Source of the DNA: Mytilus trossulus
Lineage: Eukaryota
Length of the DNA: 64,000 nucleotides
NCBI RefSeq assembly: GCF_036588685.1
Contig: NC_086382.1
Span: 21,576,001-21,640,000, forward strand
Reading direction: 5' to 3'
Shown in pieces: positions 2,231 to 47,022 of this stretch. How positions within the stretch are numbered: the first letter of the stretch is position 1; the number at the start of each line of letters is the position of its first letter. A program made the position numbers and the translations under genes. The notes under the pieces were generated by a model. That model was not told where the DNA came from. It did no database searches and saw only the letters and a program-made list of their open reading frames with translations.

Positions 2231-3102
2231 TTGGTGAATTTGGATTAAAATCAATCGACCAAAACTTACCTGTATTATTACTGGTCTATGTTTACACCTT
2301 ATACATTATATATCAGTATTGTTAAAACTTTTGCACCGAAGAAGGCCATTTGTTGAGCCGAATTATTTGCAATTATTGAATAATTTATATCATCTGTTCA
2401 GTTTTTCCATCTTTGTGCGATGATATTCAACACTTTTTAGTGTTTTGTTTTCCATCTATTTATCGGTATTGTTACACAATCTTTTAGACTCATATATATA
2501 CTAAAGAAATATTGACACCGAATGTTTGTGGCACAACATCCTGTCCACAAGTTAACAATTTTTTTTTTCTGTGACGTATTAAATTTATAATAAGATCCAT
2601 TTTGTTACAACCTGTGATCAATTTTATTTGGCAATCGCCAATGGCAGTCAGCAGGGTTAAAGAACATCAGTTGTTCGACCTGTTAGTCAAATGCGTTTTG
2701 TTTAAATATACTTTTTCACTCTTTTTTGGTCTTTTGGAAAATGTTGTTTGTGCTGTTTTTAGACCCTTTTACAACGAAATTTGTTGGACATGCACACGTA
2801 TAAAAATTGTGGTTTTTATCCAACGCAGTCATAGGTTTGAACGTAGTTTTCAATTTAGACTCGTTTATATATATATATAAGTACGTCTGAGTCAGTGACA
2901 ACTCTACAACAGATTTATCCATCGGATCACCAGCAAAGATGGTGATACATGGCTGTGTACATAATGTATATACAACTCGTCTAAACAGCAACCCAACAAT
3001 GTTAGATCTGTAAATTTGCTTTCGCAAATTTTTTGTTCTTCCATCGCTGGGATTCGAACCAATTTACAGATCTAACATTGTTGGGTTGATGTTTAGACGA
3101 GT

Positions 3103-3136
<34 letters not shown>

Positions 3137-3274
3137 TACGTCTGAGTCAGTGACAACTCAACAACAGATTTATCCATCGGATCACCAGCAATGTGTACAT
3201 TATGTATATACAACTTAATCTGTAACAATAACATCTCCATGCCTTATATATCATGTACTGTAGTTCGCCGCTAG

Positions 3275-3327
3275 ATTAAAACTGACGAGGAAAGGTAAAT
3301 CACGGCCACCGAAAGCTTTATTTTAGT
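3275..3327 (+). ncRNA. Candidate minimal type I hammerhead ribozyme upstream of the tRNA-like head
   Basis: AUUAAAA-CUGACGA-GG..CC-GAAA-GCUU-UA-UUUUAGU, with palindromic AAAGCUUU; stem II is weak. Confidence 0.5.
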
Positions 3328-3330
3328 GAA

Positions 3331-3424
3331 GCCCAGGTGGTCGTGTGGTCTAGCGGGACGGCTACAGTGCCGGCGATTTGGTGTCACGATATCTCAGTAG
3401 CATGGGTTCGAATCCCGGCGAGGG
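3331..3424 (+). ncRNA. tRNA-derived Pol III promoter (SINE-like head), not a functional tRNA
   Basis: GCCCAGG TGGTCGTGTGGTCTAG (A box) ... GGTTCGAATCCC (B box); poor acceptor stem. Further copies at 43877-43971 (+) and ~45584-45678 (-). Confidence 0.7.
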
Positions 3425-3743
3425 AAGACAAAAAAAAAAAAAAATTGCGAAAGCAAATTTACAGATCTAACATTGTTGAGTTGTATATATATATATAAGT
3501 AAATATATAAACGAGTCAAAGTTGAAAACTACGTTCAAACCTATGATTGCGTTGGATAAAAACCGCAATCTTTTAACAACTGATGTTCTTTAACCCTGCT
3601 GACTGCCATTGGCGATTGCCAAATAAAATTGATCACAAGATGTAACAAAATGGATCTTAATATAAATTTAATACTTAACAGAAAACAATTAACTTGTGGC
3701 CACGATGTTATGCCACAAACATAAGGTGTTAATATTTTTTTGT

Positions 3744-3787
3744 ACACCAGATCCGGATTTCGACAAAAAATGTCTCTTCAGTGATGT
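3744..3787 (-). ncRNA. Type I hammerhead ribozyme (module A)
   Basis: ACAUCA-CUGAAGA-GACA UUUUU UGUC-GAAA-UCCGGA-UC-UGGUGU. Confidence 0.85.
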
Positions 3788-4448
3788 TAGGGATCGAAAC
3801 GATATTTGGAAGGCCATATTAAATGTACCCTCATTTTTAGGTAGACTCTTGAATTATAAGAGTCATATATATTTATATACTCAGTTAATGTATACACTGA
3901 TTGTATATATAGGGAACCACTGAAGCATGACTTGAGCGACCCCCCCCCCCCCCCTTAGGTCAGTCAACGCACCCTCCCCTTATGTAAATGTCTTGATCCG
4001 CCAGTGGGGAGGACCCTACTGACATCAAAATCTCTATATTCCTGATACATGTATTTATTTAATTTTAAATCTAAAAAGTTATCATCAACAAAATTCATCA
4101 AAGGAAAACTTTGACTGAGGGAGATGCAACCCTATAAAATAAGAACAATTGAATTATTAATGAAACAGACATTCCAGACAGAATGAGGAATTTTCGTTTT
4201 GCTTGTTTCGAACATACGGAATGATTGGCTATCAGTTTGATGGTATCCTATGAAGCTAGAAGTTTTCTATCAGTGGCAATGATTCAGTAATTTTATAAAT
4301 ATTGAATGATATGAGGAAAACGTTCTAAATGACATTAAACAATTTATAATAAAAAATCAAAGTCAAAAGTCTTTTAATTCATCTTCCTGTTAACGTGCAG
4401 AAGTTTTGTCAGTTTTGTTTCACTCTTCCAGACCCGACGTCTCCGTTA

Positions 4449-7684: not shown

Positions 7685-7875
7685 AGGCATAGATTACTTT
7701 AGCTGAATTTGGCGACACTTTTAGGAATGTTGGTCGTCTATGCTCTTCAACTTCGTACTTTATTTGGCCTTTTTAACTTTTTTGGATTCGAGCGTCACTG
7801 ATGAGTCTTTAGTAGACGAAACGCGCGTCTGGCGTATATAAAATATTTAGTCCTGGTATCTATGATGAGTTTATT
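7685..7875 (+). mobile_element. Retrozyme-like repeat fragment
   Basis: Homologous to 38588-38731 and 28388-28570; contains an HHR. Confidence 0.75.
7792..7835 (+). ncRNA. Type I hammerhead ribozyme
   Basis: GCGUCA-CUGAUGA-GUCU UUAGU AGAC-GAAA-CGCGCG-UC-UGGCGU. Confidence 0.88.
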
Positions 7876-10057: not shown

Positions 10058-13000
10058 ATGAGTTCCAAACTACGTTCTATACGTGCAGGACACAGAAGCG
10101 TTATTTCCCGACTTTTGAAGAAATTTGACACATCCGAGACGACGGAGACGAGCCCGTGAAAACTGAAAGATCGTTTATGCTTTAACTGTCTAGGACACCA
10201 TAGCTTGTCCGCATGTAAATCTACAAAAACTTGCAACAAGTGTCACAAACGTCATCACACCAGCATTTGCAAAGACAATGTTAAAACAAATGAAGACAAC
10301 AAACCAACAGGGGATATAACCGTAGGCACAATTCAACACAACGCGGAGGAACCAGACACTGTTTTACACTCGCAATCGACAGATCGTGTACTTTTGAAGA
10401 CAGCAATTAACCCAGTAAGTTCAGAACATGAAATACTTGATGTAAAAATAGTGTTTGACGAAGGCGCACAGCGCTCATTTATCACAGAGGAATTAGCCGA
10501 AAAATTGAAACTCAAACCTACTGGAACTGAAAGCGTTAACCTATCCGGATTTGGAGACAATGCAAATAGTACTAAAATTCGCCATTTGAGTACAGGATTG
10601 GTATATCTCATAACGGCAGAGGTTAAACTTCCGATTCGAGTCTTGATCGTTCCAGAGATCGCAGTACCGATGAGAACCTATGTACACCAAGCAGCAAAAC
10701 TTACATATTTGTCAGGAATCAAATTAGCTCACCCAGTAACAGCAGATGAAAACTTTGAAATTTCTATTCTAATTGGAGCTGATTACTTCTGGTCAATTGT
10801 TCAGAATGATATTATCCGAGGCGAAGGACCGACAGTTGTTCAATAAAAAATCGGATACCTGTTGTCTGGAATGCTATATTCACACAACTCTGACACAGAT
10901 GGATACAAGAGAGCTTCAATGATGAACGTGATGATCGCAACAAAAACCGATGAGTACGACTTGGAGAAATTTTGGAAAATAGAGTCACTGGCTACCGAGA
11001 AAATTAACACTACAAAGTTAGAAGAACAGATGGATATTCAAAAGACTTATGAAGATAAACAAATTCGTTACCATGACAACAGATATTTTGTAACGTTACC
11101 ATGGAAAGAGGATCACCCTACGTTACCGACCAATAAAACCATTTCACAACTTAGGACGGAAAGTGTAGTAAGAAGACTTAGCAAAGAACCCAAACTTCTG
11201 GAAAAATATGGAGAAATAATGGCTGAGCAGGAGAAAAGGGGTTTCATAGAGAAAGTGGATACTACTAATGAGGCCGATGAAAAGAGCAAAATACACTATA
11301 TTCCGCATCATGCTGTGAGAAAAGATTCAACTACAACACCAATCAGGGTCGTATTCGACTGCAGTTGTAAAGCAACACCAGAATCGTCTAGTCTTAATGA
11401 TTGTTTGATGACTACTCCACCCAATTTAAATGACTTAGTCGGCATTCTTTTAAGATTTCGTTTACACCAATTTGCCGTTACTACTGATATAGAGAAGGCG
11501 TTCTTGAACGTTGGATTAGAGACACAGGATAGAGATGTCACACGTTTCTTTTGGTTCGATACACCAACAGACCCATCAACTCCACTATCAACTTACCGAT
11601 TTAAGTCTGTATTATTTGGAGCCACTTCATCGCCATTCATACTGAATTCCGTTCTATAAAAACACTTGAGAGAGAGCCGTTGTGAATATACTGACACTTT
11701 AAAGAACGATTTGTATGTTGATAATATACTGTCGAGTTTTCCTACAGAGAGTGCATTACTGAAATATTTTGATACTTCAAGAGACTTATTCATTAAAGCA
11801 GGATTTAACTTGCGCTCATGGGCTTCAAATTCTCAACTTTTGCGAGACCGCGCAAATTCACACAGCGTATTAGACAAAGATGAACTCATAAAAGTGCTTG
11901 GATTGAGATGGAACACTTGTAACGACACACTTACTTTCGCCAAACCGGAATACACCGATATTGAAGATACACGTATGACAAAACGAGATATTTTAAGACA
12001 ATCGTCTAAAATCTATGATCCACTCGGACTTATTGGTCCAGTTACTGTGCGTAGTAAGATGCTTATGCAGACTTTGTGGGAGAAAGGATTAAATTGGGAT
12101 GAACCTCTTACATCTGAAATTGCAACAGAATGGAAGTGTGTACTAAAAGATATTAATGAATGTTCACATTTGGAAATTAATAGACCGTATTTCAAAGAAA
12201 AATCAGACAATGTAGAATTACATGTGTTTACGGATGCAAGCTTGAAAGCCTATGGAGCATGCGCATATTTAGTCAGTGGAAAAGAAACCGTACTTATCAT
12301 GTCAAAGAAACGAGTGACACCACTGAAACAGTTAACAATTTCGAAGTTAGAACTCAGTGCAGCTTTGATAGGCGCAAGACTCGTCAAGCATTTGAAATCG
12401 CACTTGGATGTTACAAGCGTCACATTATGGAGTGACAGTCAGATAACTTTAAGTTGGCTCACTACTGAGAAACAATTACCCGTTTTCGTTTGTAATCGAG
12501 TGAAGGAAATTAACGAAATTACGCAAGAATACACATGGAAGTACTGTCCGACAGATTCAAATCCGGCAGATATGCTATCGAGAGGAGTAACTGCAACCAA
12601 ATTCCTAGAAATGGATCTTTGGATGAAAGGACCCGAATGGCTCACTGACAAATCAAACTGGCCACAGTGGAAGAATAAAGAATCACACATTCTTAGCACT
12701 ACCATTGAGCAAGGACAATCAACTAGTGAACCGCAACAGAAAATCAGATCTTATGAAGGAATAAGTAAAATTATGGATATACAACGCTACAGCTCATACC
12801 AAAAACTTTTGCGTATAACTGCATACATGTACCGATTCATAAACAACTGTAGAAATAATGACAAACTAACAGGAAATCTTAGTGTCAATGAAATTCAGAC
12901 TGCTTCGACTTCATGGATTCGAGATTCGCAACTGCGTAAATACCCGGATGTTATTGAGAGTTTAAACAATAAATCAGAGAAAAATGCGCTAGTGAAGCAA

Positions 13001-14359
13001 CTTGGATAGTACATGGATAAAATGAACATTATCCGTAGTGGCGGGAGAATTAACAATGCACCTATTGATGAATCAGCTAAATTTCCAGTACTAATACCGA
13101 ACAAAGACAGATTTTGTCAATTAATTGTGATGGATGCACACGCAAAGAATTTTCACTCTGGATTAGAAAGTACAGTGACATTTATTCGCCAGTCTTACTG
13201 GATTCCGTCGATTCGACAATGTGTGAAATCAATACTCCGTAATTGCGTTACTTGCCGTAAAATTACCGGAAGACCATATCATACACCCGACCCACCACCA
13301 CTGCCGTCCGACAGACTTAATGATTCACCAACGTTTACTGTAATCGGTGTCGACTTCACAGGAGTATTGAAAGTGAGAACAAAAAGCAACAGTATTAGTA
13401 AAGCATATATTTGTCTATTCACCTGCGCTAACACTAGAGCTGTGCATTTGGAAATCGTTGAAGACCTTACAGAACAAACATTCATTCTAGCGTGTAGGAG
13501 ATTCACCAGCCGCAAATCGTTACCAAAAATCATGATGTCTGACAATTGTACAACATATACCGCAGCAGCGAAGGAAATTGAAATGCTTACAAAATCTACT
13601 ACTATTCAGGAACAACTCAACATATATGGAACTCAGTGGAAATTTATTCCGAAGCGTGCACCATGGTATGGTGGTTGGTGGGAACGATTGATCGGCTTGA
13701 CCAAGAATTGCATAAAGAAAGTGTTAGGACGAGCACTAGTTACTTTTAGAGTGCTAGAGACAATTGTGATCGAGATAGAGGCTATATTAAATGATCGACC
13801 GTTAACCCTCGTATCAACGGACCTTACCGATGATGAACCGCTTACACCGTCTCATCTTCTCTATGGAAGACGGGTTAAAACTTTACCGTATTCAGGAACA
13901 ATTAATTTCAGCAGTGAGGAGAACGTACAAAACTTAACACATTACACATCAAATAGACAATCTAGTGTTCAAAAACGCATTATTCACGACTTTTGGAACA
14001 GATGGCGACGAGAATACCTCACTTCACTTAGGGAACAACATAGAAACACCGGAATTAACACTCAAATCAATAAAGTGGGCGACATTGTACAGATTCATGA
14101 TGATACCCCAAGGACAGTGTGGAATATAGCGATTATCGTTAAGTTAGTTTATGGGAGAGATGGACTTTGTAGGTCTGCTATTTTACGCACTAAAAATGGC
14201 ACGACGTCTAGACCAATAAGTAAGCTATATCCACTTGAACTCTTATCAACAGATAGTCCGTGTGATTCAAGTGACAACACTATTACTTCAACCAGAAAAG
14301 CAAAAACTGATGCCAAGAAGAAAATCAAAAGTTGGATTCAACCGTTCCGGAAAGCATAA
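10058..14359 (+). pseudogene. gag-pol polyprotein of the inner BEL element: one frame with four in-frame stops
   Basis: ATG at 10058 (MSSKLRSIRAGHR); stops at 10157, 10844, 11657 and 13007; all listed ORF pieces share one frame. Motifs VFDEGAQ, DIEKAF, YVDN, VFTDAS, GVDFTG and SDN. Confidence 0.92.
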
Positions 14360-14647: not shown

Positions 14648-17600
14648 GTAGTGATGTTATTCTACGTCCGTAAAGTAAGTGGGACGGGGTGAGCGGTTCA
14701 TCTAAGGGGTCGGATGATACGTACATGTATGTTAAAGGTCTGTCGTTGAGTATAGCTTCAACTTCCGTAACAATGGTTCTTAATAGTTCAATCTGAATCA
14801 ATGAACGCACTAATACCTTTTTGATAGAGTCCTTCGTTAGTCCTATAAGCCTCTCCCAAAAGCCACCATATTACGGTGCTCGTTTTGGTATAAACTTCCA
14901 AGTAGTGCCGAAGTTGTTCAGTTTTTCAATAACGGATGATGATCTTGTTAATTGCTTGGCGGCTGCAATGAATGTTGTACCGTTGTCTGAAATCATAATT
15001 TTTGGTAATGATTTTCTACTAGCAAATCTTCGAAACGCTAAATTAATAATATGAATGTCTCTTCAGATAAATTCATCACTACTTCTAAATGTACAGCACG
15101 AGTGTTTGCGCAAGTAAATAGACAAATGTATACTTTACTGGTAAGTCCATCTGTGGTTTTAACATTCAAGGCGCCAGTAAAATCTACCCCGGTTACTGTG
15201 AACGGGGGTGCTTCTGTTAGTCGGTCTTTAGGTAAAGGAGGTGGATCTAGAGCCGAATACGGTTGACAAGCAACTTTCTTGCAGATCACGCATTTATGTA
15301 TAATGCTCTTGATAACTTGTCGTATCGATGGTATCCAATAGGTTTGGGGTAGTAATGTTACGGTACTCGATAATCCTAAATGAAAATGAGTTACATGTGC
15401 GTCCATTATGATAAGTTGTGTCAATTTGTCCTTTGCGGGTAGCAATATCGGGAATTTTGTATATTCTTCAAGAGGTGCATTATGAATGCGTCTGTCGCAG
15501 CGAATTAATTTGTCTTTAGCTATGTATAATTTAAGTTGTTTGACAAGATTGTGTTTTTTCCCCTCTCCTGTTTACAAATCTTGAATGATTTCTGAATAAT
15601 GCTTTTTCTGTATGTATTGTATCCACGTTAAAGATGCGTTTTGTATTTCGATCGTGTTTAACATACCTGTTTGTATAGCTCGTGTTCTATAGTTTGTAAT
15701 AAATCTTCTCACGTAAGCGGTAATTCGAAGAAGTTTCTTGAATGAGTTGAATTTATTAAAATCGATGACATTTCCGATCCCTTGTATCATGTGTATAGTT
15801 AATTAGTTCTGTGTAGCTTGTACGGTATCTACTACGACTTCTTGGTGCGAAATAGTGGATAAAATTTGTGCTTCATCTCTGTTCCATTCTGGCCTATTAT
15901 CTTCAAGTGTGAGCCAATCTGGGCTATGCATCCAAAGTCAGTTGTCTTTGAATTTATCAACGGTTATCCCTCTTGACAGTAAGTCAGCAGGATTTGACTT
16001 ACTTGGACAGTATCGCCAGGTTAACTCTTCTGTTAGCTCTGTTATTTCCTTAACGTGGTTTGAAATGAACGGTTTTAAAGTTTTCTTTGAACTTAACCAG
16101 GTCAAAACTATCTGGCTATCACACCATAAAACTGCACGGGTTATCTGCAAAGTGTTCCTAATGTGTGGTAAAAGTCTGCTTCCAATTACGGCAGCCATCA
16201 ATTCTAATCTTGGTATTGTCAGTTGTTTCAGAGGTGCTACTCTGTTCTTTGCCATTATTAAAGAACTTTTTCCGTTTGCGACAATGTACGCGCATGCGCC
16301 GTAGGCTTTCAAACTAGAGTCTGTGAATACATGTATAACGTTGTCGTTGTTTGTGTCTGAACTTTCATCAAAGTAATGTCGGGGTACAACTGTCTTCGTG
16401 GCTTCTTGTATATACTTTCTGATATTCACCCATTCTGTGATCGTTGAGTCAGGTAGTAATTCGTCCCAGTTGAAGTTTTTCTCCCATATGTTTTGCATCA
16501 ACATTTTTTTGCGGACGGTTATAGGGCTTAGTATTCCTAGCGGGTCATAAATCCTTGATGATTGTCTTAGTACTTCGCGTTTTGTTATTAGTTCTGATGT
16601 ATGTATTAACTGTAACGAATCCTAATGTGTCACTGGCTATATCCCATCGTAATCCTAAGATTTTAACTAGTTGATCCTTGTCCATAACATTTACGGTTCT
16701 TGCTAATACTTGTAATAGTTGACTGTTGGAGGCCCATGAGCGCAAATTAAATCCTCCATCTGCAAATAGACTACGAACGAGTTTAAAGTATTTCAACAGT
16801 TCTTCTTCTGATTCAAAGCTTGATACAATGTTATCTACATATAAATCTTTGGTTAGTTTTTCAGTGAAATCAAATGGATGGTTATTCAAGTGCTTTGATA
16901 ATACGGCGTTCAATATAAATGGCGAGCATGTAGCACCAAATAGTACGGACTTGAAACTGTATGTTGTTAAATCGCTGTTTGGGTCTGTTGGTTTACTCAA
17001 CCAGAAAAACCTAGTTACGTCCCAGTCCTCAATGTCCAGTCCAACATTTAGAAACGCCTTTTCGATGTCTGTAGATACTGCATACTTATTCAAGCGGAAT
17101 CTGAGTAGTATGGCGGTTACTTCATTTAATTTAGGCGGTACATTCAGTAAGCAGTCATTCAAGCTAGCACTATCTGGTGTCTGTTTGCAACTACAATCAT
17201 ATACGATCCTAATTGGCGTCGTGACTGAATCCTTCTTTACTGGGTGATGTGGTAGGTAATGCAGCTTGATATTTTGTTTGATTTCTTCGTTATCAACTCT
17301 CTCAATGAACCCTCGCTTTTCCTGCTCATTAATTATTTCTACGTATTTTAAAAGTAATTTTGGTTCCTTTTGTAAACGTTTAAGTACACTCTCAGTCCTT
17401 CTGAAAGCAACAGCTTTGTTTGTTGGTAGCGGTGGATGTTTGGCTATATACCTGTTGTTATTGAAAGATATTGCTGTTTCTTCGTACATTTTCTGAAATT
17501 CGTCGTTTTCAGTATTTCCGGTAATCTTCAACTCCAAGCGATTCAATCTCCCAGAATTTCTCTAGGTTTAATTCCTCTGTCTTGTGTGATACGATAACAT

Positions 17601-20600
17601 TAAGAATAGAGATCCTACTTGTGGTACATGTACTTGCCGTTGTGGGTCCTGATAGGAGGTATCCAAGCCTGGATTCAACGGCGGTTGGTCCTTCACCTAT
17701 AATAATGTTATCTCCAACTATTCTCCAATAATAATCTGCTCCGATTAGTATTTCAATTTCGAACATGTCTTCGTCCGATACAGAATGTGCTAATTTTAGT
17801 CCTCGTAAGTGTCTCATGTTAGTAACGGATTTCATGTGAACTTGTAGTGGCATTGCAATTTCAGGAATAATTAGTACATTTAGTGGTATATTTTCGCCTT
17901 CATCTGTTTGAATATAAACTGTTGCCGATTTCATGTCTTACTTGTCTATTTTGTTCTCCGAAACCGGAAAGGTGCACTACTTCGTTTCCGCTTGAAACTA
18001 AATCCAACTTCTCTGCAAGTGTCTCCGTTATGAAGATCCTCTGCGCACCTTCATCTAACAAAATATTGGCTTCTGCACTTTGTTTTCTCGAACTAACAGT
18101 AGCGACGGCTGTCTTTAACAGTACATTTGTAGTTCTTTGTGTTAGGGAAGAATGTAATACCGTATTTTCGGTTTCTTTGGCTGGCGGTCTGCTCGATTCC
18201 TCAGATTTCTCATCTTTACTACATATGCTAGTGTGATGACGTTTGTTACAATTTCGACAGATACTTTTTGATTTACAATCAGCTAGTTTGTGGTGACCTA
18301 GGCAGTTGAAACACAGTCGTTCGCTCTTGACTATATTCATCCGCGCGTTAGCGGTTTTGACTTTAGTGCAGTTAACGGGTGTGTGTCCGATTTCGTGACA
18401 AAATGCGCATTGCTTTGTGTTTATCTTTTTATCCGAATACGACCTTTCGTTCTTGTTGAATGAAGATATTGTACGTGATTTTGCGTTGGTCAAGAATGTA
18501 GCGGTAGCGAGTGGGTTTTCTACTTTTTCCGGTAATTTGCCGGCTTCCATAATATTTAGTTCTTCGAGAAGGGCTTTGCGTAAATCATGTAGTGTCCAGT
18601 TTGTGGATCTGTGTTCTCGTGCTAAATGTTGACGTATCTCTGCGGGTAATTTATTTAGAATTACAGGGACTAGTAGTGATCCATACGTATCGTCTGTCTG
18701 TCCGAGTGACTCGAGACTTCTTACATAAGTTTCTGTCTTATCATAGTAGTTACGGAGACTAGTAATTGTATGATTTGGAGCCTGTAAATCAAGTAAGGCC
18801 TGCATGTAGGTTTGGACGATTTTATGAGTTTGCCCGTATCTTTCCTGGAGTAATGAAATTGCTTTGTCATAATTTGTGTTCGTCATGGAAAAACCTGCAA
18901 TATTTTGTAAAGCTTCGCTTTGTAGAAGGCACTTTAGGTAGTTGAATTTTTGTGCATCACTCAGTGAAGGATTTGTGTGGATCGCGGTTTCATAGGAGTC
19001 CCAAACCGAATGCCAGTCTAGTATATCTCCGGTAAATATAGGTAAGTTTAACTTTGGTAGCTTGTGATACTCGGTGTTTGCGCTAGACGATGAGCGTGAA
19101 CTTGAGCTATGCGTATATTGTTGGTTTGCAGATGTTGAAGGTTGACTAATAAATGTAGATGGAACTGATTGTGTAAAACTATCGGCATGAGGGTTCAAAT
19201 TGAATGAAATTGGTTCATTTGCGGGTAAACTCTAATTTTGAATTGACTTTGCCAATTTTGTAATTTGTCGTAATTTATATTCTAAATTGAACATGTACTC
19301 ATCTGATTCCTGTATTTCCACTGCTACATCTTCATCCGAAGTTTGCTCCAAGATCTTCTCGTTGATGTTCTCTAAAGTTCTTTTCTTCTGAGTGACTACT
19401 TCTAATAATTTTAAAATTTCCTCGTAATCCGCTTCGGAACTTTGTTGAATTTCTTCAAATTTCTTCAGGAGTTTCGTTACTGCACCTTTGTGTCCCGCTC
19501 GGACGGCTTTCATCTTCGTATCCATTTTCCCTTTTGTTTTAAGCTAAACATGCCACTGACGATCCGGCGTTATCCACATAGTAAGCTTTTTGCAACTGAC
19601 TTCGTAGGCTTGACAAAAATGAAGTTTGGCTTAAAATTTATACAAAACATATAGAATATATGTTCATGCTCTCTATATCTCTAATATTTACCAAATACGA
19701 ATGCAGCTGGTGTATACACCAGACATCCAACTATTATTTCTGTATCCGACATTCTGCTCAAATGCGATGCTCCATCTATTTTAAAATATTAACGTATGTG
19801 CAAGTGTCTGGTCTTTAACGCCACGAAAAGGGAATTTCTTAAATAAGGAAATAAACTGAAAAACGAGTCAAATGAGACTCACTTAAATTGTAAAACACGG
19901 TTTTTTCTGTGAAAGGGGTATTGAGTTTGAAAAGGCACGTGATATGCTCATAAAACAAGAAGGGTAATAAGACGTAGAGATACCTCTTTGGACAGCTTTC
20001 ACACTGCGAATCTGCAAATGCAATTTAAATATGTAAAATATTTATTGACAAATCATTAATAAAAATTGGATTGACTCTAATACCAAATTAGCGACAAGTG
20101 ACAACATACGCCATCCAACCATTTTTGTACATCTAAAAACCGTTGTTCGCATGCTTTGCATATATTTGATTACTAGTACATGTACTCTTGGGCTTTTGAC
20201 GGTCATTAAAAAATAATTGCCATGTAAATCATTAAGGCCGAAATCCCAAGTATCTTTATTGGTTTAAGAAACTGGTTTCTTGTTATTCACTATAAGAGCA
20301 CCTTCTTTTAAAACACAATCGCTATCCAACTAGGAATTTGAACTAAAATATTTAGCCGATTTTGACAATACCTAAACTGAAAAAACAGCTCTCCATTACA
20401 ATTGTTCTCCTTAGTCTTCTGTGTCTGGGTTAAACTCCGCAAAAAAGTATAGCCACCACATCAATGTTCTAATTCGCACGAGGTGCAACGCTGCATTGGG
20501 TCTATTACTACCAACATTTAGTCTTTTTCGCTTCGAAATTGTCGTCTTTCCTAAAGATACTGTAACTGAATATTCATTTCTCTATTTCTCTTTTGAGGCT

Positions 20601-23899: not shown

Positions 23900-26155
23900 T
23901 TATATGAAAATGTTGTTATTAAATCGTGTTGACAAATATTTTGGCTCAACGAATGGCTTTCGTCAGTGTCAAAAGTTTTTTAAAACAATACTGATCTAAG
24001 TGTAAAAATAGATCAGTCATACAGGTAAGTTTTGGTTTATTGATAATCTCATAATATAAACAAAACACTATAATTCAATATACGTGACTGTGTATATTAA
24101 CATTAAAAAAATGAGTGAAAAACAAAACTGTTAGTATTTCTTATCGATGCCGTTTGGGTGATGCACATTTAGTTCCTTTATCCAAAAGCTTTCCCGAACC
24201 TGTCGCTGAATCTTCTGTTCAATAACAAGAATTTGCATGCGGTTACTGTCATAAAGTTTGTGACCCGACTCTCTGAAATGCTGAGAAACTGGGAGAAGTA
24301 GCTCCTTAGAGATATCACTCCTATGGCCATTGAGGCGTTTGTGGAAGGGCTGCTTTGACTCACCATCATATTGGAGGCCACAAACCGAACATTCTAGTAT
24401 GCAAATTACATTCATACTTTTGGAGGTAACATTGAAAAATATCTTATAGTTATTTTCGGTTGCCTTACTGTGAAATGTTGATGAATGCTGCATCTGTAGG
24501 CAGCATTTGCAGCGTTTTTCTTCACAAGAACGACATTCTCCAGAAGTCCTTCTATTATCAGACACTTAAGCCCGCACCACCAGGTTCCGTAGACTATTAG
24601 GTTGCCTAAAAGCTATCATAGGAGGCTCGGGAAAAATCTTGGATAGTTTGGAATTCTTTTCAACTGCTTTCCAATGCTCACCAATGACACCAAAGCTGTT
24701 TTTGAGAGAAGGGTGGTAAGTAAGAACACATGGAGTCCTTTTAATTTTCCTTTTTACTTTGAATTCCAATAGTTTACGCCTAGGAATTGATTCCGCTTTC
24801 TGAAAACCTTTTTTGATATTTCTGTGTTTGTAGACCCTTTTCTTCAAGCGATTTTCAAGTTGACGTAGTTGTCTTTTAGTTGTTTCTGTGTTGGAACATA
24901 TTCGCTTGACTCTTAGTGCCTGACTGTACGGGAATGCTCTTGGTAAGATGAGCAGGATGGCAACTTTGAGGGAACAAATATTGATGAGTTTCAGGAGGTT
25001 TAGAATATAGATTTGTAAATATGATGCCCTCTGTGAGCGAACTTGAAGTATCGAGGAAGGCGATTTTGGATTTAGATTTCTCATGAATAAATTTTTCACT
25101 TGGATGTATGTTGTTGGCATGAGTGATAAAAGTATCTAAATCCTCGTCGCTTTTATTCTATTTCATATCCACATCATCTATACATCTAAACCAGGAAACC
25201 GGGTTTTCGATGGAAGATTCAAGGAGTTTCTCTAATTTGCCCATAAATATGTTGGCATATGATGGAGCCATTTTGGTGCCCATGGCTTTAAGTACCAACG
25301 TGAGCATTTTGACCAGGCATTCAGTAGGTGGATATTTCACTGGTCTGGAATTCCAAACTTCTTTACATGCATCAATGCCATCTGCATGAGGAATATTAGT
25401 GTAGAGAGAGGTGACATCGATGGAAACAAGGGTCGTGTCGGAGGGAAGTGTATTTAAGGCCTGCATTTTTCTAAGATAATCGGTTGTATCTTTGATGTGA
25501 GATGGTAAGTCTTCAACATGTTGACGAAGGTGGAAGTCAACGAATTCCGATATTTTTTCCGTCGGATGACCGTTCGCTGAAACTATAGGTCTTCCTGTGT
25601 TATTGGCCTTATGAATTTTAGGTAAAAGATAACATCTCCACGGTTTTGAATTTTCTGGTTTCAAATATTCAAGAGTTTTGTCATTGATGAAACCATCGTT
25701 ATCCATTTGTACCAAACTATCAGTTATTTCTCTGCTAAAATATGTTGTAGGATCAGAGTCTAGTTTTTGGTAGAACCTTGCATCGCCAAGTTGTCGTTCA
25801 GCCTCTTGAATATAGGCATATTTATCTATGACAACCACTGCACTGCCTTTGTTTGCAGGTTTAATACGATATTGTTGTTAGATCGTTATTTTTTTCGTTA
25901 AATCATTGTCAAAAGGTTTATTGTTATTTTTAGTATTTCTAATAATGTCCAACTTAAAGTTATCAATAAATGATTCCAGGGTAGCATTTTTGCTCGGTTT
26001 AAGAACTCTTTTTTATAAATTTGTAGTTGTTCTCGTCTTCTGTAATTTCTGAGTCACTATCCGAGCTTATTATTTTATCCTCCTTCGACGCGAAATATTC
26101 CTTAATACGTAGACTTCTAGCAAAATTGTCAAGGTCTTCCGACAATTTGGTTTCA
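23900..26155 (-). mobile_element. Penelope-like element (RT + Cys linker + GIY-YIG), decayed
   Basis: [44 protein letters not shown]; PYSQALRVKRICS; CRSCEEKRCKCC; CSVCGLQYDGES..RESFWIKEL..PNGI. Its 3' region resembles the pLTR at 1560-1710. Confidence 0.92.
23929..23972 (-). ncRNA. Minimal type I hammerhead ribozyme in PLE pLTR (GAAA mutated to AAAA)
   Basis: UUGACA-CUGACGA-AAGCCAUUCGUUGAGCC-AAAA-UAUU-UGUCAA. Confidence 0.65.
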
Positions 26156-27629: not shown

Positions 27630-28387
27630 TTTGGTATTAAAATGCAATAACTTCACATTCAATGGTGAACAATTCCTCCAAGTTAATGGAACTGCAATGG
27701 GAACAAAGATGGCCCCGTCTTATGCCAATATTTTTATGGGGAAATTAGAACAGAGAATTCTCAATTCATCTCTTCATCAACCCCTCTCTTAGTTCCGATT
27801 TATCGACGATATTGACATAATGTGGGACAATACTGAACAAGAACTAAATTTGTACATTCATCATGCCATCGATGCCCATCCCTCAATAAAATTCACATAT
27901 GAAATCTCTGACTCTAAGATCACATTTCTTGACACTACAACGCAATTGAGGGATGGAAACATATTTACAGATCTGAATTGCAAGCCCACAGACAAACATC
28001 AATATCTATCTCATTTGAGTTGTCATCCTAAACACTGCACCAAGAGCATTCCCTACAGCCAGGCCATACGAATAAAAAGGATTTGCTCCACCACCGATAT
28101 TGCAAAAAAACGTCTACAAGAACTTCGCGGTCACCTTAAACATCGGGGCTACAAAAGAAAAGACATTGATAGAGGTGTTTCTCGTGCTTACAACATCAGC
28201 CCAGATGAGGTTTTACAATATAAAGACAAAAAGGTCAACAAGAGGGTGCTTTTTGTGATGACTTACCATCCAAAATTTAATAGCTTATCTCACCTTATCC
28301 GCGAAAATTGGAAAGAGATCGAAAAACGTCCTAAACTATCCAAGATCTTTCCCGAGCCACCTGTACTGGCTTTCCGTAGGCCCAAAA

Positions 28388-28721
28388 TAGTTATCAACGG
28401 TACCAGGATTATAATTTAGTACGCCAGACGCGCGTTTCGTCTACATAAGACTCATCAGTGACACTAATATCAAAATCTTTATAAAGCCAAACAAGTAAAA
28501 AGTTGAAGAGCATTGAGGATCCAAAATTCCAAAAAGTTGTGCCAAATACGGCTAAGGTAATCTATGCCTGGGATAAGAAAATCCTTAGTTTTTCAAAAAA
28601 AAATCAAAGTTTTGTAAACAGGAAATTTATAAAAATGACCACACTATTGATATTCATGTCAACACCGAAGTGTTGACTACAGGGCTGGTGATACCCTCGG
28701 GGACGAAACGTCCACCAGCAG
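28388..28721 (-). mobile_element. Retrozyme-like monomer inside the PLE
   Basis: Non-coding unit with an HHR at 28421-28464 and a structured module at 28658-28721; related to 7685, 38588 and the 42703 array. Confidence 0.8.
28421..28464 (-). ncRNA. Type I hammerhead ribozyme
   Basis: GUGUCA-CUGAUGA-GUCU UAUGU AGAC-GAAA-CGCGCG-UC-UGGCGU. Confidence 0.85.
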
Positions 28722-38629: not shown

Positions 38630-38673
38630 ACGCCAGACGCGCGTTTCGTCTACAAAAGACTCATCAGTGACGC
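38630..38673 (-). ncRNA. Type I hammerhead ribozyme in retrozyme fragment 38588-38731
   Basis: GCGUCA-CUGAUGA-GUCU UUUGU AGAC-GAAA-CGCGCG-UC-UGGCGU. Confidence 0.88.
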
Positions 38674-41170: not shown

Positions 41171-42727
41171 TGGTTAATGGATAATAACTTTTAAGTAAAA
41201 TTTGGATTACCTCCCTCACACTACTTAAAATTTGTAAGTATGGTTGCAAACTCCATTGTAAATTTGAAATGAGATGTTGACCATAGCTTGAGTGAAAGAA
41301 TTGTTTTTTCAGGGGGTAATGTAGAAGAAATTGTTGGAAAAGGGGGGGGGGGGGGTAAACATGAAGTTGTTGGGGACAATTGTTCTTAAGATTTCAAAGA
41401 TTTAAAAGACAATTTCTTCAATTTTTTATATTTTTGCCAAAAATAGGATTGAGGGAGTGGGGTCGATTCTCACCAGCTTAGTGTATTGCACACAAGCACA
41501 CAATAAGAAAAAAAGGGGTGGTCAATTCGCAACAGCATGGTGTATTGCACATAGCAAAAAAAATGAATATAAATTCAAATCATATAACAAATTCTAAGTT
41601 CTTTTGACTACAGTTATTCTGTGTCAGAAACTTATTATGTGTCTAAGTGCTAGATTAAACATGTTCATTGCAAGAATGATCAGCAACGCTAAAATAACTG
41701 GTAAATTTTCAACAAAAGATTGTATTTCCTACTTTGTCATTGTATTAGCTATCGATGAATAAATAGTTTAATGAGTTCAATCTGAATATTTATTTTTCTA
41801 TATAATTCGTCTAAACAATGTTAGATCTGTAAATTTGATAATGAGTTTTACATGTTTTAATTATACCAATAATATATATCTATTGGTAAAGAAAACAAAG
41901 CAGACAATAAAGGTGTAATGAAAATTTAATTGAATAGTTTGATCTAACTTATGTATATAGTTTATAAATGTTTTCTATATATTCAGGTATTTTTTTGTTT
42001 TTTAATTCCATTTTCATTTGTATAGAAAAAAATGGATGAATGGAGTATTTTTTTTTCTGTCAATAATTTAATATCAACTCAGTCTCGATCCGGACCATAA
42101 GAGTATAATACTAGTTTGATTATTTCCGGCCCGGACCATATGAGTATTTAGGTATTTTTTAAATTACATTATAAAAGTTTCAATAATACAAAAACTGTAT
42201 CTAAAAAAAACAATGATGGTTACATGACAATGTATTGTTTTTATATTTCAAATACTACGTAAAAATTAAATATTGATGCCATAGTTAGTTTTAATCGCTA
42301 AGTTCATTCTTGCATGTAGGCTTGGGGTGACATTTACTTCCACATGGTATCATAGGTTTTTTGCATTTGCAAGTTTTGGTTTTGCACGATCCTTTTCATT
42401 TACACATTTTGTTTGCGAGTGAAAAGCTACCCTTGTTGAAGCTGCGTACAGTGATATTACATCTATGGTGATACCGAGGTCTTGGGCCATTCCGATATTT
42501 CTACGGTGTTTTAAAGAAGCTCTAGATCTCAAATATCGTCAAAGGATTGCAACACACCATATTCACAAGACAACTTAAATAAACTATTTTACTTTCCAGT
42601 GACTTCTTGTGTATCGGTTCATTAAGAAACTTTTGGAATTTTTTTAAGTCGACATATTGCCATTCACTCGTAATAACAAATCGGTAACGACCATTGGTAT
42701 CATAACATTAAAGGTACCAATTTTTCT

Positions 42728-42771
42728 GCACCAGATGCGCATTTCGACAATACATGTCTCTTCAGTGATGC
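42728..42771 (-). ncRNA. Type I hammerhead ribozyme (intact)
   Basis: GCAUCA-CUGAAGA-GACA UGUAU UGUC-GAAA-UGCGCA-UC-UGGUGC. Confidence 0.9.
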
Positions 42772-43078
42772 TCGTGGCCAAAATATTTGAAATCCAAAGC
42801 TTATATAAAAGACGAAGAGCTATAATCCAAAAGGTCCAAAAAGTATAGCCAAATCATTGGAAGGAATCAGAGCTTTGCATGAAGGAGATACATTCCTTAA
42901 ATTATAATCATTTCTAACATTTTGTAACAGCAAATTTTAATAACACAAAAAAATCCGTATTTTCATGCTAGTACCGAAGTACTGGCAACTGGGCTGATGA
43001 TACCCTCGGGGACTAACAGTCCACCAGCAGAGGCATCGACCCAGTGGTAGTAATAACATTAAAGGTACCAATTTTCCT

Positions 43079-43121
43079 GCACCAGATGCGCATTTTGACA
43101 ATACATGTCTCTTCAGTGATG
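43079..43121 (-). ncRNA. Type I hammerhead ribozyme (GAAA mutated to AAAA, likely inactive)
   Basis: CAUCA-CUGAAGA-GACA UGUAU UGUC-AAAA-UGCGCA-UC-UGGUG. Confidence 0.75.
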
Positions 43122-43427
43122 GTAGTGGCCAAAATATTTGAAATCCAAAGCTTATATAAAAGATGAAGAGCTATAATCCAAAAGGTCCAAAAGGTATAGC
43201 CAAATCATTGAAAGGAATCAGTGCTTTGCATGAGGGAGATACATTCCCTAATTTATAAAAATTCTAACATTTTTTAAAAGCAAATTTTGATAACACAAAA
43301 AAAACGTATTTTCATGCAAGTACCGAAGTACTGGCAACTGGGCTGGTGATACCCTCGGGGACTAACAGTCCACCAGCAGAGGCATCGACCCTGTGGTAGT
43401 AATAACATTAAAGGTACCAAATTTCCT

Positions 43428-43471
43428 GCACCAGATGCGCATTTCGACAATACCTGTCTCTTCAGTGATGC
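43428..43471 (-). ncRNA. Type I hammerhead ribozyme (intact)
   Basis: GCAUCA-CUGAAGA-GACA GGUAU UGUC-GAAA-UGCGCA-UC-UGGUGC. Confidence 0.9.
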
Positions 43472-44658
43472 TCGTGGTCCAAATATTTGAAATCCAATGC
43501 TTATATAAAAGATTAGAGCTATAATCCAAATAAAATTATCTATATGATAGCGTCTTTTTAATGAACGATCATACCATATGAAAAGTTAAGAAGTATTAAA
43601 AGTTAACTGTAACAGAGTGTTAGTTACCCCGACCATATAAGTATATACCCATATGGTCATGATCATACGCGTATGGTTCAAATACTCATATATATATATA
43701 TGGTCCGGAACATATATATATATATTTCTGTGACTGTATCCTTTACTATAGATAATTGAGCTGATCTGTAACAATAACATCTCCATGCCTTTTATATCAT
43801 GTACTGTAGTACGCCGCTAGAGTAAAACTGACGAGGAAAGGTAACACACGGCCACCGAACGCTTTATTATTGTGAAGCCCAGGTGGTCGTGTGGTCTAGC
43901 GGGACGGCTACAGTGCAGGCGATTATGTGTCACAATATCTCAGTTGCATGGGTTCGAATCCCGGCGAGGGAAGAACAAAAAAATTTGCAAAAGCAAATTA
44001 ACAGATCTAACATTGTTGGGTTGATGTTTAGACGAGTTGTATATACATAATTAGTACTGCAACCAGAGTTCATTTTTAAAAGTTTAATGGTCCGGAAGAA
44101 CACACACCTAAATTATATATCGATGGAAAGAGGAAAATGTGTACAATAAGAAAAGTTGGGTCGTAAAAATCCAGAGTGGTCACAATTATGTGAAATTGAG
44201 GTCAAAGGTCAGACCTAAAAATATCAATATTTCAACCACAAGAACAAAATTAAATTTATATATATATATATATTTTATTTGGCAATCGCCAATGGCAGTC
44301 AGCAGGGTTAAAGAAAATCAGTTGTTCGACCTGTTAGTCAAATGCGTTTTGTTTAAATATACTTTTTCACTTTTTTGGTCTTTTGGAAAATGTTGTTTGT
44401 GCTGTACTTAGACCCTTCTACAACGAAATTTGTTTTACATTAACACGTATAAAAATTGCGGTTTTTATCCAACGCAATCATAGGTTTGGACGTAGTTTCC
44501 AATTAAGACTCGTTTATATTTTTTCGTTTGGGCTTGTATCATATTTTCCCTCCGGTTTATATGATCAGTTCATCCTATATTGACTATTAAAATTCAAGAG
44601 TCTATCTAAAAGTGAGGGTACATTTTATATGGCCTTCCAAATACCGTTTCGATCCCTA

Positions 44659-44702
44659 ACATCACTGAAGAGACATTTATTGTCGAAATCCGGATCTGAT
44701 GT
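44659..44702 (+). ncRNA. Type I hammerhead ribozyme (module A, perfect stems)
   Basis: ACAUCA-CUGAAGA-GACA UUUAU UGUC-GAAA-UCCGGA-UC-UGAUGU. Confidence 0.9.
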
Positions 44703-44965
44703 ACAAAAAAAATATATATATATATATTGACATCTTATGTTTGTGGCATAAAATCGTGGCCACAAGTTAATTGTTTTCAGTTTAGTATTAAATTTATATT
44801 AAGATCCATTTTGTTACATCTTGTGATCAATTTTATTTGGCAATCGCCAATGGCAGTCAGCAGGGTTGAATAACATCAGTTGTTCGACCTGTTAGTCAAA
44901 TGCGTTTTGTTTAAATATACTTTTTCACTTTTTTGGTCTTTTGGAAAATGTTGTGTGTGCTGTAT

Positions 44966-45502
44966 TTAGACCCTTCTACAACGAAATTTGTTTTACATGC
45001 ACTCGTATAAAAATTGCGTTTTTTATCCAACGCAATCATAGGTTTGAACGTAGTTTTCAATTTAGACTCGTTTATATATATATATAGTTTTAGACCCTTC
45101 TACAACGAAATTTGTTTTACATGCACACGTATAAAAATTGCGGTTTTTATCCAACGCAATCATAGGTTTGAACGTAGTTTTCAATTTAGACTCGTTTATA
45201 TATATATATAGTTTTAGACCCTTCTACAACGAAATTTGTTTTACATGCACACGTATAAAGATTGCGGTTTTTATCCAACGCAATCATAGGTTTGAACGTA
45301 GTTTTCAATTTAGACTCGTTTATATATATATATAGTCTTAGACCCTTCTACAACAAAATTTGTGTTACATGCACACGTATAAAAATTGCGGTTTTTATCC
45401 AACGCAATCATAGGTTTGAACGTAGTTTTCAATTTAGACTCGTTTATAAATATATATAGTTTTAGACCCTTCTACAACGAAATTTGTTCTAAATGCACAC
45501 GT
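44966..45502 (+). repeat. 124-bp tandem repeat (~4.3 units) of the module A 3' end
   Basis: Period 124 (ORF starts at 45014, 45138, 45262 and 45386); each unit ends in GACTCGTT(TA)n. Confidence 0.95.
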
Positions 45503-47022
45503 ATATATATATACAACTCGTCTAAACATCAACCCAACAATGTTAGATCTGTAAATTTGCTTTCGCTCTTTTGTTTTTGTTCTTCCCTCGCCGGGATTCG
45601 AACCCATGCTACTGAGATATCGAGACACCAAATCGCCTGCACTGCAGCCGTCCCGCTAGACCACACGACCACCTGGGCTTCACAATAATAAAGCTTCACA
45701 ACTCGTCTATATATATATGTACAACTAATGACAAAACAATGAGATTCAGTTATAAAAATATAAAAGTTTATACATAATTCATTCGTTTGTGAATGATTTT
45801 CATGGTACAAATACACCAATATACAAGTTGTCTTTTATTGCAAACACAATTTATACAACATACGATTTAAGTTTATAAATGCATTGCATAAGGAAATAAA
45901 TAAAGCACTATTATAAAATAACATTTGAGGAAATATATGTATAATGATGGAAAATACAATTATTGTTTATTCCACACCTACAATAGTTAAATTCATACTT
46001 CCTGACTGTATTAGCCCTTCAAATACACTTCAATTAGGAAGTATAATAGACCTAGCAACACAACTCCCAATAAAATCTGGGAGAGAGATTGAGTGCCTAA
46101 AAAGGATAAACAGTTCATCCTCTCCTACCTGTTGTATTGCGCCAGCAAGTAAAACATCATGCAATACGTCGCTTTCTATATAACTTTTATTTTATGAGAA
46201 TAAAGTATTCATGTAATTTCACAATTGAGAAAAAGAGGATGGGATTTAAGATAAGACAATTTTAAAATATATTTCTGTTTCCATATGTGGTACAGATGTC
46301 GGACAATTCAGGATGATATCCGTAAAACTTTCAAAGGGATAACTTTAACTTAATTAGTTGGTCTCTTTGGTGCAATAACGTCCTTATAAGTTGCCAGTAA
46401 CTCTCTATCAAGAAAATCATTATAGGACACTCAAACCCTGGATTAGCATCAATGCTGGAATGTTGCTACTCAGAAACTAAAAGTGCACAATTGGGAAATT
46501 GAAGTCATCTCTATGGCCAATAGGTTTAAATCCCAACTGACCCTCAGTGTCAATTCCTAAATGTATATCAAGATATAAGGCAGAATGAACTATAACTGTA
46601 ATGTCATAAATTTCATGGTTCAAGTGGATAGATGTAGTCAAAATAGTCACTATTTCAACATAGTCTCTATATTTTTATTTATTATGTAAAAAGACATCGC
46701 TAAACAAAAAGTGAAGTTAAAGGATAAAGCCATGGTTTTGCAATACATTTAGCGTGTGCTTGAAAAGTTTCTGTTTAAGAAAAAAGAAAAGTTGTCAAAC
46801 AGAGGTCGCATGCCAACATACGTGCTGTGCCATGTGAAAAATATGACTCAGCTTGTTGAATTATATTGGCTACAATCTAATAAATAGTTATGCAAAGAAA
46901 AAATACATACCTTTGAAAAAATATTAACATTTATAAGTAAAGGATGATAACTTAAAAAGAATAACGTATACACAATCTCTGAGCTTTGTTATTGCCTGTA
47001 ACCACTATATAAAATATTTCAG

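What the first reader, a model, noticed from the sequence alone, without database searches (positions are those of the whole stretch)
3225..3495. Hammerhead candidate fused directly upstream of a tRNA-like Pol III promoter (ribozyme-SINE hybrid)
Module B carries CUGACGA..GAAA-GCUU-UA with stem I AUUAAAA/UUUUAGU, ending 3 nt before an A-box/B-box tRNA-derived segment, followed by a conserved tail ending at (TA)n. Copies occur at ~43730-44050 (core GAAC) and ~45505-45700. The last copy begins at the AAGCTT palindrome next to the predicted cleavage site. Unlike a normal SINE, over 100 bp of conserved sequence precedes the tRNA head. This suggests a retrozyme/pLTR that captured an internal Pol III promoter (inference).
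Basis: partly seen in the sequence, partly recalled or inferred. Interest (0 to 1): 0.7.

Follow-up and report, generated by a model that had tools for sequence, protein, structure and literature searches.

The report
Ribozyme-free tRNA-headed parasite of Neptune retrotransposons
The flagged 'hammerhead' is likely not a working ribozyme but part of a rod-shaped fold in a 441-base, tRNA-headed repeat present in thousands of copies, whose abundant one-strand RNA is likely circular and whose insertion ends match those of Neptune-type Penelope retrotransposons, which likely copy it into TA microsatellites.

Summary
The motifs are there, but the hammerhead fails. Only 880 of 5,745 exact core 21-mers keep CUGANGA, stem II has 2 bp, and stem I shows no compensatory change. 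A rod pairing the same bases with the tRNA head does covary, and a 476-bp sister family keeps the rod without any core. The window copy is a truncated member of a 441-bp head-to-tail unit (at least 6,925 copies). Its insertions end at two TA sites about 90 nt apart around an RTATC-stem-GATCC hairpin, as do Neptune-type Penelope families of this genome. In 12 of 13 classifiable inverted insertions the two arms use different sites, as in the Neptune insertions examined. 5' truncations peak at the tRNA head, and none lies at the predicted self-cleavage site. Three stranded RNA runs (one study) show about 500-700 reads per million, one strand, unbroken round the unit. Best model: a Pol III-headed, likely circular RNA copied by Neptune reverse transcriptase. 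How the circle closes is open. The scan found this family before on other DNA (e1-9956386, e1-9812081). The Neptune link, the truncation peak and the sister family were not in the parts of those notes shown to me.

The parts
3218..3497 (+). 5'-truncated copy of the 441-bp unit (unit positions 162-419, 90% to a young unit, about 15 nt lost before the end), ending at TA site E1 and (TA)7
3268..3356 (+). Rod: 3268-3275 pairs 3349-3356; about 3301-3310 pairs 3336-3345 (A-box region); inner hairpin 3315-3332 with T-rich loop; 23-nt bulge 3276-3298
3282..3327 (+). Hammerhead look-alike (CTGACGA ... GAAA ... TA, claimed stem I); not conserved as a ribozyme
3317..3325 (+). T-rich loop (T7 in the dominant subfamily) just ahead of the head; likely Pol III terminator of the preceding unit (inferred)
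3331..3423 (+). tRNA-derived head, A box 3338-3348, B box 3405-3415; leucine-tRNA-like; not called a tRNA by ARAGORN
3125..3217 (-). Inverted arm of the same insertion: tail part of the unit (29-97, with a deletion) ending at the second TA site E2
2870..3110 (.). Second inverted pair of the same family: minus arm (unit 345-441 and 1-97) ends at E2, plus arm (392-441) ends at E1
2924..2948 (-). Tail hairpin RTATC-stem-GATCC shared with Neptune-type Penelope elements
43738..44045 (+). Further copy (unit 136-441, GAAC in place of GAAA)
45508..45696 (-). Further 5'-truncated copy (unit 257-441)

Best explanation
This is a truncated copy of a 441-bp non-coding repeat with a tRNA-derived head and no intact hammerhead, whose RNA is likely made by RNA polymerase III, likely accumulates as a rod-shaped circle, and is likely reverse-transcribed into TA microsatellites by a Neptune-type Penelope retrotransposon. 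Steps: (1) Inferred: Pol III starts 0-4 nt ahead of the head and would stop at the T-run one unit later, giving a unit-length RNA. (2) Shown by covariation and folding: the 3' part pairs with the head, so these two ends would lie side by side. (3) Inferred, weakest step: a host ligase would join them; reads run unbroken across this loop. (4) Inferred from shared ends: Neptune protein binds the tail hairpin and starts reverse transcription at two TA sites about 90 nt apart (E1, E2), one for each arm of an inverted insertion. (5) Inferred: an unligated template stops at the head (truncation peak); a circle lets the enzyme roll, giving arrays of one haplotype.
For: Fixed 3' ends: 301 of 378 ends away from locus edges at E1 (140 exit, 161 continue into the next unit) and 32 at E2. 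Three Neptune-type families (911, 934, 928-aa ORFs, RT plus C-terminal GIY-YIG; one printed protein has the CxxC-x4-CxxC linker) have the same two TA ends, with the RTATC-stem-GATCC hairpin 34-38 nt after the anchor used. The motif is in 7 of 7 tails compared, with different stems; chance is 182 in 200,000 shuffled 70-mers. Inverted insertions: 12 of 13 with both ends at E1/E2 have one of each (22 found; p 6e-6 at observed frequencies, 0.002 at 50:50). The same holds in 8 of 8 Neptune loci where ends on both strands were scored. Two internal start sites bounding the tail were shown in vitro for a Poseidon element (PMC11167929, passages). 5' breaks: 14 of 199 (12 independent) at unit 270-274 against 1.1-2.5 expected, p<=1e-5; window named beforehand. 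Rod: 94.5% of cells paired, 4 compensatory pairs, 0 of 500 shuffles; circular fold z -6.2, 0 of 60 shuffles. Arrays: 11 of 13 have mean within-array difference <=6 nt and 8 of 13 below 1.3, against mostly 1-8 between arrays (0 for a few pairs). One haplotype spans both arms of a 22-unit inverted array. RNA: 539, 723, 522 reads per million in X21-23, 10-100-fold one strand; sense depth falls 10-14% across E1 while antisense falls 55-61%. The sister family does the same although only 2 of its 11 listed ends continue in DNA and no array of three is among 64 hits.
Against: No circle, start site or polymerase was shown. Reads keep T7 in about 80% (T6 12-15%, T8 7-8%), so joining after the usual 4-5 U would not fit unless the run is fully copied or re-extended. 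No pile-up of read ends at the loop; depth there is about half the peak. A T4 run inside the unit is read through. X24 (another study) shows only 32 reads per million on both strands, so abundance rests on one study. RNA strand is inferred from the usual library convention. No long sequence identity with any Neptune, only the short motif and end pattern, so the helper family is not named. The covariation set of 15 was hand-picked by hairpin class, and related sequences can beat the shuffles. Breakpoints come from loci chosen by motif, mostly on one contig.
Confidence: 0.62

Rival explanations
1. Ribozyme-SINE hybrid: a working (dimeric) hammerhead cuts just ahead of the tRNA head, as in Schistosoma Sm-alpha.
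For: Core letters and a 7-bp stem I in the window copy. 20 of 232 collected copies pass a lenient core, stem I and triplet test. Minimal PLE hammerheads with a short stem III cleave slowly as dimers (PMC6765202, passages), and one is protein-assisted (PMC11167929).
Against: Core base lost in 85% of exact hits and most reads. The dominant triplet register is CTT-T. 0 compensatory pairs. The fold is 21-34 kcal/mol worse. No 5' breaks at the cut. The sister family lacks the core. True hammerheads of this genome have 3-5 bp stem II and palindromic stem III.
Confidence: 0.06
2. Same element, but the RNA is linear multimer read through tandem arrays (Pol II, or Pol III ignoring the T run), and arrays are copied from multimers.
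For: Long homogeneous arrays exist. Short reads cannot tell circle from multimer. T7 is intact in reads.
Against: Strong one-strand bias; few exits at E1 against 47% in DNA; the sister family has almost no arrays yet gives continuous RNA; the truncation peak implies templates that begin at the head.
Confidence: 0.17
3. The RNA is circular but is cut and joined elsewhere, by an unrecognised ribozyme or by a tRNA-processing nuclease acting on the tRNA-like head, and the hammerhead-like letters may be a relic.
For: Reads show no scar at the T loop. The bulge keeps TGAC and AAGGTAACAC in both families. In the sister family about 22% of molecules begin or end at one place 5 nt after the tail hairpin in 2 of 4 runs. 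RNase P would cut at unit 274, inside the truncation peak (knowledge).
Against: No Rfam ribozyme match. The head is predicted to be locked in the rod, with a poor acceptor stem. The peak is spread over 270-274. The pile-up may be a primer hot spot.
Confidence: 0.15

Closest known systems
Metazoan non-LTR retrozymes, incl. Mytilus galloprovincialis 350-390 nt (PMC7229834 passages; review PMC7761336 passages)
   Same: Short tandem non-coding unit, highly self-paired, abundant RNA that is circular in the published case, AT-rich, likely PLE-dependent
   Different: No valid hammerhead; 441 nt; carries A/B boxes, whereas the review says retrozymes seem to have no promoter and no motif pointing to the helper. 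The paper's supplement could not be read, so sequence identity with its families was not checked.
Schistosoma Sm-alpha SINE-like hammerhead repeats (review PMC6765202, passages)
   Same: Pol III-type tRNA promoter inside a tandem unit, so that one unit transcribes the next
   Different: Sm-alpha has a working hammerhead; here a T-run in a hairpin loop stands at the unit boundary and the ends tie it to Neptune
Neptune-type Penelope-like elements and non-autonomous PLEs such as MRC1 (PMC8557442 passages and supplement parts; PMC11167929 passages)
   Same: pLTR-like partial tandems, inverted arms, (TA)n targets, optional tail between two start sites
   Different: No ORF, no hammerhead, tRNA-derived head; tail about 90 nt rather than 30-40 nt
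TRIMp3 (Cassandra, Helenus, Ajax; PMC10886601 abstract and passages)
   Same: Non-autonomous retroelement with a small-RNA-derived Pol III promoter inside its repeat
   Different: Those are LTR elements with PBS, PPT and TSDs; this one has PLE-type ends
Canonical tRNA SINEs of bivalves (PMC11481361, passages)
   Same: tRNA-derived head at the 5' end of the inferred RNA
   Different: Circularly permuted, reverse transcription starts inside the unit, long and inverted arrays; that paper has 0 mentions of Penelope in the main text

Membership tests
Type I hammerhead ribozyme | Conserved CUGANGA core | tested here: not met
   880 A against 4,865 T exact 21-mers; present in the window copy; absent from the sister family
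Type I hammerhead ribozyme | Stem I kept by pairing | tested here: not met
   75.8% of cells paired, 0 compensatory pairs in 15 sequences; 7 of 7 pairs in 4 of 188 copies scored
Type I hammerhead ribozyme | Stable stem II and stem III (hairpin or dimer palindrome in register) | tested here: not met
   2-bp stem II, single A-U stem III; fold 20.8-33.5 kcal/mol above the rod; no Rfam hit
Type I hammerhead ribozyme | Self-cleavage | not testable with these tools
   Indirect only: 0 of 199 5' breaks at the site, no read-end pile-up
Metazoan retrozyme | Short tandem non-coding unit, highly self-paired | tested here: met
   441-bp arrays; circular fold z -6.2
Metazoan retrozyme | Self-cleaving hammerhead in each unit | tested here: not met
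   rows above
Metazoan retrozyme | Accumulates as circular RNA | tested here: inconclusive
   Continuous one-strand coverage; short reads cannot prove a circle
Non-autonomous Penelope-like element | Partial tandems, inverted arms, fixed 3' ends, variable 5' ends, microsatellite target | tested here: met
Non-autonomous Penelope-like element | End signal shared with an autonomous PLE of the same genome | tested here: met
   Two TA ends, tail hairpin and E1/E2 pairing shared with Neptune-type families; short motif only
Non-autonomous Penelope-like element | Mobilised in trans by the PLE protein | not testable with these tools
   needs an in vitro or cell assay
tRNA-derived SINE | tRNA-derived head with A and B boxes | tested here: met
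   52-60 identities to 82-84 nt Leu tRNAs of this genome; 5 of 6 alignments above the best of 200 shuffles; only Leu tRNAs compared
tRNA-derived SINE | Pol III transcription from the head | tested here: inconclusive
   Strand bias and truncation peak fit; no direct test
tRNA-derived SINE | Linear head-body-tail monomer reverse-transcribed from its 3' tail by a LINE | tested here: not met
   Permuted tandem units with internal start sites

The most novel reading that the evidence does not exclude
A class of ribozyme-free circular-RNA retroelements: Pol III start and stop signals placed end to end in a rod replace self-cleavage, a host ligase closes the circle, and Neptune reverse transcriptase rolls round it from two hairpin-defined start sites. 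It would be the Penelope-dependent counterpart of SINEs (LINE-dependent) and TRIMp3 (LTR-dependent), with at least two families (441 and 476 nt) in this genome.
Probability: 0.38. Interest if true: 0.82.

Novelty: new variant of a known kind. Interest (0 to 1): 0.6.

Why it matters
The helper of animal retrozyme-like circles was open in the review read (PMC7761336). Here a short hairpin and a two-site end rule tie three non-coding families to Neptune elements, which can be tested directly in the existing in vitro PLE assay. The one-arm-E1, other-arm-E2 rule also offers a mechanism for the inverted structure of PLE insertions. If the RNA is a Pol III circle, cells can make abundant small circles without ribozyme or splicing. 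As a caution, CUGANGA..GAAA matches in such repeats are not enough to call a hammerhead.

Tried and rejected
Twister, hairpin and HDV-like folds were looked for by eye from recalled consensus and by Rfam: no match. Naiad as helper: the Mytilus Naiad consensus ends in the supplement of PMC8557442 (part 21 read, term searches) do not resemble E1/E2; Naiad_Mgal was seen only in part. Homology to the 355-bp and 573-bp hammerhead families by BLAST: nothing below E 0.5. The idea that the upstream arm is a diverged inverted duplicate of the head: sequence alignment score 52 against shuffle mean 50, so not shown; G-U versus A-C count 8 to 5, uninformative. Literature searches for a prior description found none, but Repbase, Dfam and subscription papers are not covered. 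PMC5785218 (dimeric hammerhead variants) is not held, and the supplement of PMC7229834 was unreadable; both may bear on the hammerhead and identity claims. Search of earlier notes by sequence found nothing.

Full report
Setting. The window lies in a 1.30-Gb animal assembly. It is likely a mussel, judged from genome size and contig layout (my knowledge) and from its 355-bp hammerhead repeats; this was not tested. The flagged letters are present as described.

What the element is. A DNA search with 3215-3490 gave 3,121 first-look candidates. An exact 22-mer over the B box has 6,925 hits, many spaced 441-442 bp apart. Across 380 non-redundant fragments from 107 loci, 3' ends are fixed. Of 378 ends away from locus edges, 301 lie at site E1 (161 continue into the next unit, 140 exit, 86 of these straight into more TA) and 32 at a second site E2 about 90 nt further on. 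5' ends are scattered. The window holds two inverted pairs at 2870-3110 and 3125-3497, nested among copies of a 573-bp hammerhead family.

Hammerhead test. Rfam finds true type I hammerheads at 7792, 28421 and 38630 but none here. The genome's real hammerheads have 3-5 bp stem II and palindromic stem III. Here stem II is 2 bp. The last base of CUGANGA, a conserved core position (recalled), is T in 4,865 and A in 880 exact 21-mers, and T in about 85-89% of sense reads. In 232 copies, a set biased toward the window type, 100 have CUGANGA, 80 have it together with GAAAG, and 20 pass a lenient full test. On 15 hand-picked sequences the hammerhead pairs show 80% pairing and no compensatory change (193 to 500 of 500 shuffles as high). 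A rod over the same bases shows 94.5% pairing and 4 compensatory pairs (0 of 500). The claimed 3' strand of stem I is the variable loop of a hairpin whose stem changes on both sides between subfamilies. The enforced hammerhead costs 20.8 and 33.5 kcal/mol. None of 199 5' breakpoints lies at unit 258-269. A 476-bp sister family (64 hits at one mismatch) keeps the rod, the T loop and the head, with no CUGANGA or GAAA.

Head and likely transcript. The head resembles leucine tRNAs of this genome, more clearly in the sister family; only leucine tRNAs were compared. The longest T run on the sense strand (T7) sits in the hairpin loop directly ahead of the head; the only other is T4. 14 of 199 5' breakpoints, 12 after counting one tandem event once, fall in the 5 nt at the start of the head, against 1.1-2.5 expected. 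I had noted this prediction before the count, after seeing a few cases. This fits linear templates that begin at a Pol III start (inference).

RNA. Raw reads of 4 runs were laid on one unit. X21-23 (one study, stranded) give 539, 723 and 522 reads per million, 10-100-fold on one strand, covering all 30 bins. X24 gives 32 per million on both strands. By the usual convention the RNA is the A/B-box strand, and the sister family, laid in the opposite orientation, agrees. Across E1 the sense depth falls 10-14% while antisense depth and X24 fall 55-61%, near the 47% exit rate in DNA. Depth across the T loop is about half the peak, not zero. The sister family gives 133, 146 and 93 per million with no fall at E1, although 9 of its 11 listed genomic ends exit there and no three-unit array is among its hits. 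Of 13 arrays with 3 or more full units, 8 differ by under 1.3 nt within the array. A 22-unit inverted array has one haplotype on both arms, and T-loop length is mostly array-specific. A circle explains this most simply, but it is not shown. Against simple end joining, about 80% of reads keep seven T.

Helper. A protein search with a PLE fragment of the window found three families with intact 911, 934 and 928-aa ORFs. The 911-aa protein has RT, a CxxC-x4-CxxC linker and C-terminal GIY-YIG, the Neptune/Nematis layout described in PMC8557442 (passages). Each family ends at two TA sites about 90 nt apart. Between them lies RTATC-stem-GATCC with a family-specific stem; the 441 unit, the sister and the 573-bp family have it at the same place. 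Chance is 0.09% per shuffled 70-mer. Of 22 head-to-head insertions of the 441 unit, 13 have both ends at E1 or E2, and 12 of these have one of each (p 6e-6 or 0.002). The other 9 end at an edge or elsewhere on one side. In 8 of 8 Neptune loci with scored ends on both strands the same rule holds (18 loci examined). Two internal start sites bounding the tail were shown in vitro for a Poseidon element, whose protein is predicted to be a dimer (PMC11167929, passages). No long identity links the unit to one Neptune family.

Comparison and verdict. It works like a retrozyme and like Sm-alpha but fails the hammerhead test. It is best filed as a non-autonomous, tRNA-headed Penelope-type element, analogous to TRIMp3 among LTR elements. 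Nine literature searches found no description, with the gaps listed under Tried and rejected. Papers seen: passages of PMC7229834, PMC8557442 (plus supplement metadata rows and part 21), PMC11167929, PMC6765202, PMC7761336, PMC11481361; abstract and passages of PMC10886601. Earlier notes of the scan on the same family agree on ring-like RNA and a crippled core. Odds by step: no working hammerhead 0.93, PLE-mobilised 0.9, Neptune type 0.8, circular RNA 0.7, Pol III 0.7, closure at the T loop 0.4. Interest 0.6.

Noticed in passing
L200:1828-2303 (minus): 476-bp sister family with the same rod, T loop, tRNA-Leu-like head and tail hairpin, no hammerhead core, expressed on one strand; about 22% of molecules begin or end at L200:2035, 5 nt after the tail hairpin, in 2 of 4 runs.
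   Followed up: partly
window 2503-2870, 3505-3871, 44272-45505: Roughly 550-575-bp family with a well-formed hammerhead (CTGAAGA core, 4-5 bp stem II, palindromic stem III); shares the TA target, E1-like end and tail hairpin, so likely also Neptune-dependent.
   Followed up: partly
window 7792-7835, 28421-28464, 38630-38673: Canonical type I hammerheads of the abundant 355-bp retrozyme-type family.
   Followed up: partly
window 42688-43530: Tandem of about 320-bp units with a broken hammerhead-like motif and a motif resembling the 5' end of Naiad consensus sequences (compared by eye).
   Followed up: no
L200-L212: Inverted Neptune insertions end at E1 on one arm and E2 on the other in 8 of 8 scored loci; the 911-aa family has a degenerate hammerhead-like motif in its 3' UTR.
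   Followed up: partly
window 10160-14359 (+) and 15038-19231 (-): Two broken BEL/Pao-like LTR retrotransposon copies in opposite orientation (family name recalled from motifs).
   Followed up: no
window 24566-25877 (-), 27793-28419 (+): Broken Neptune-type PLE pieces.
   Followed up: partly
L094:900-3000: 583-bp variant unit that has captured flanking DNA and a second partial head, then been copied as a tandem.
   Followed up: no
L218-L247: Long tandem arrays of tRNA-Leu(AAG) genes with a 1,290-bp period, 527 motif hits in all.
   Followed up: no
window 47013-48326 (+): Ankyrin-repeat coding exon.
   Followed up: no
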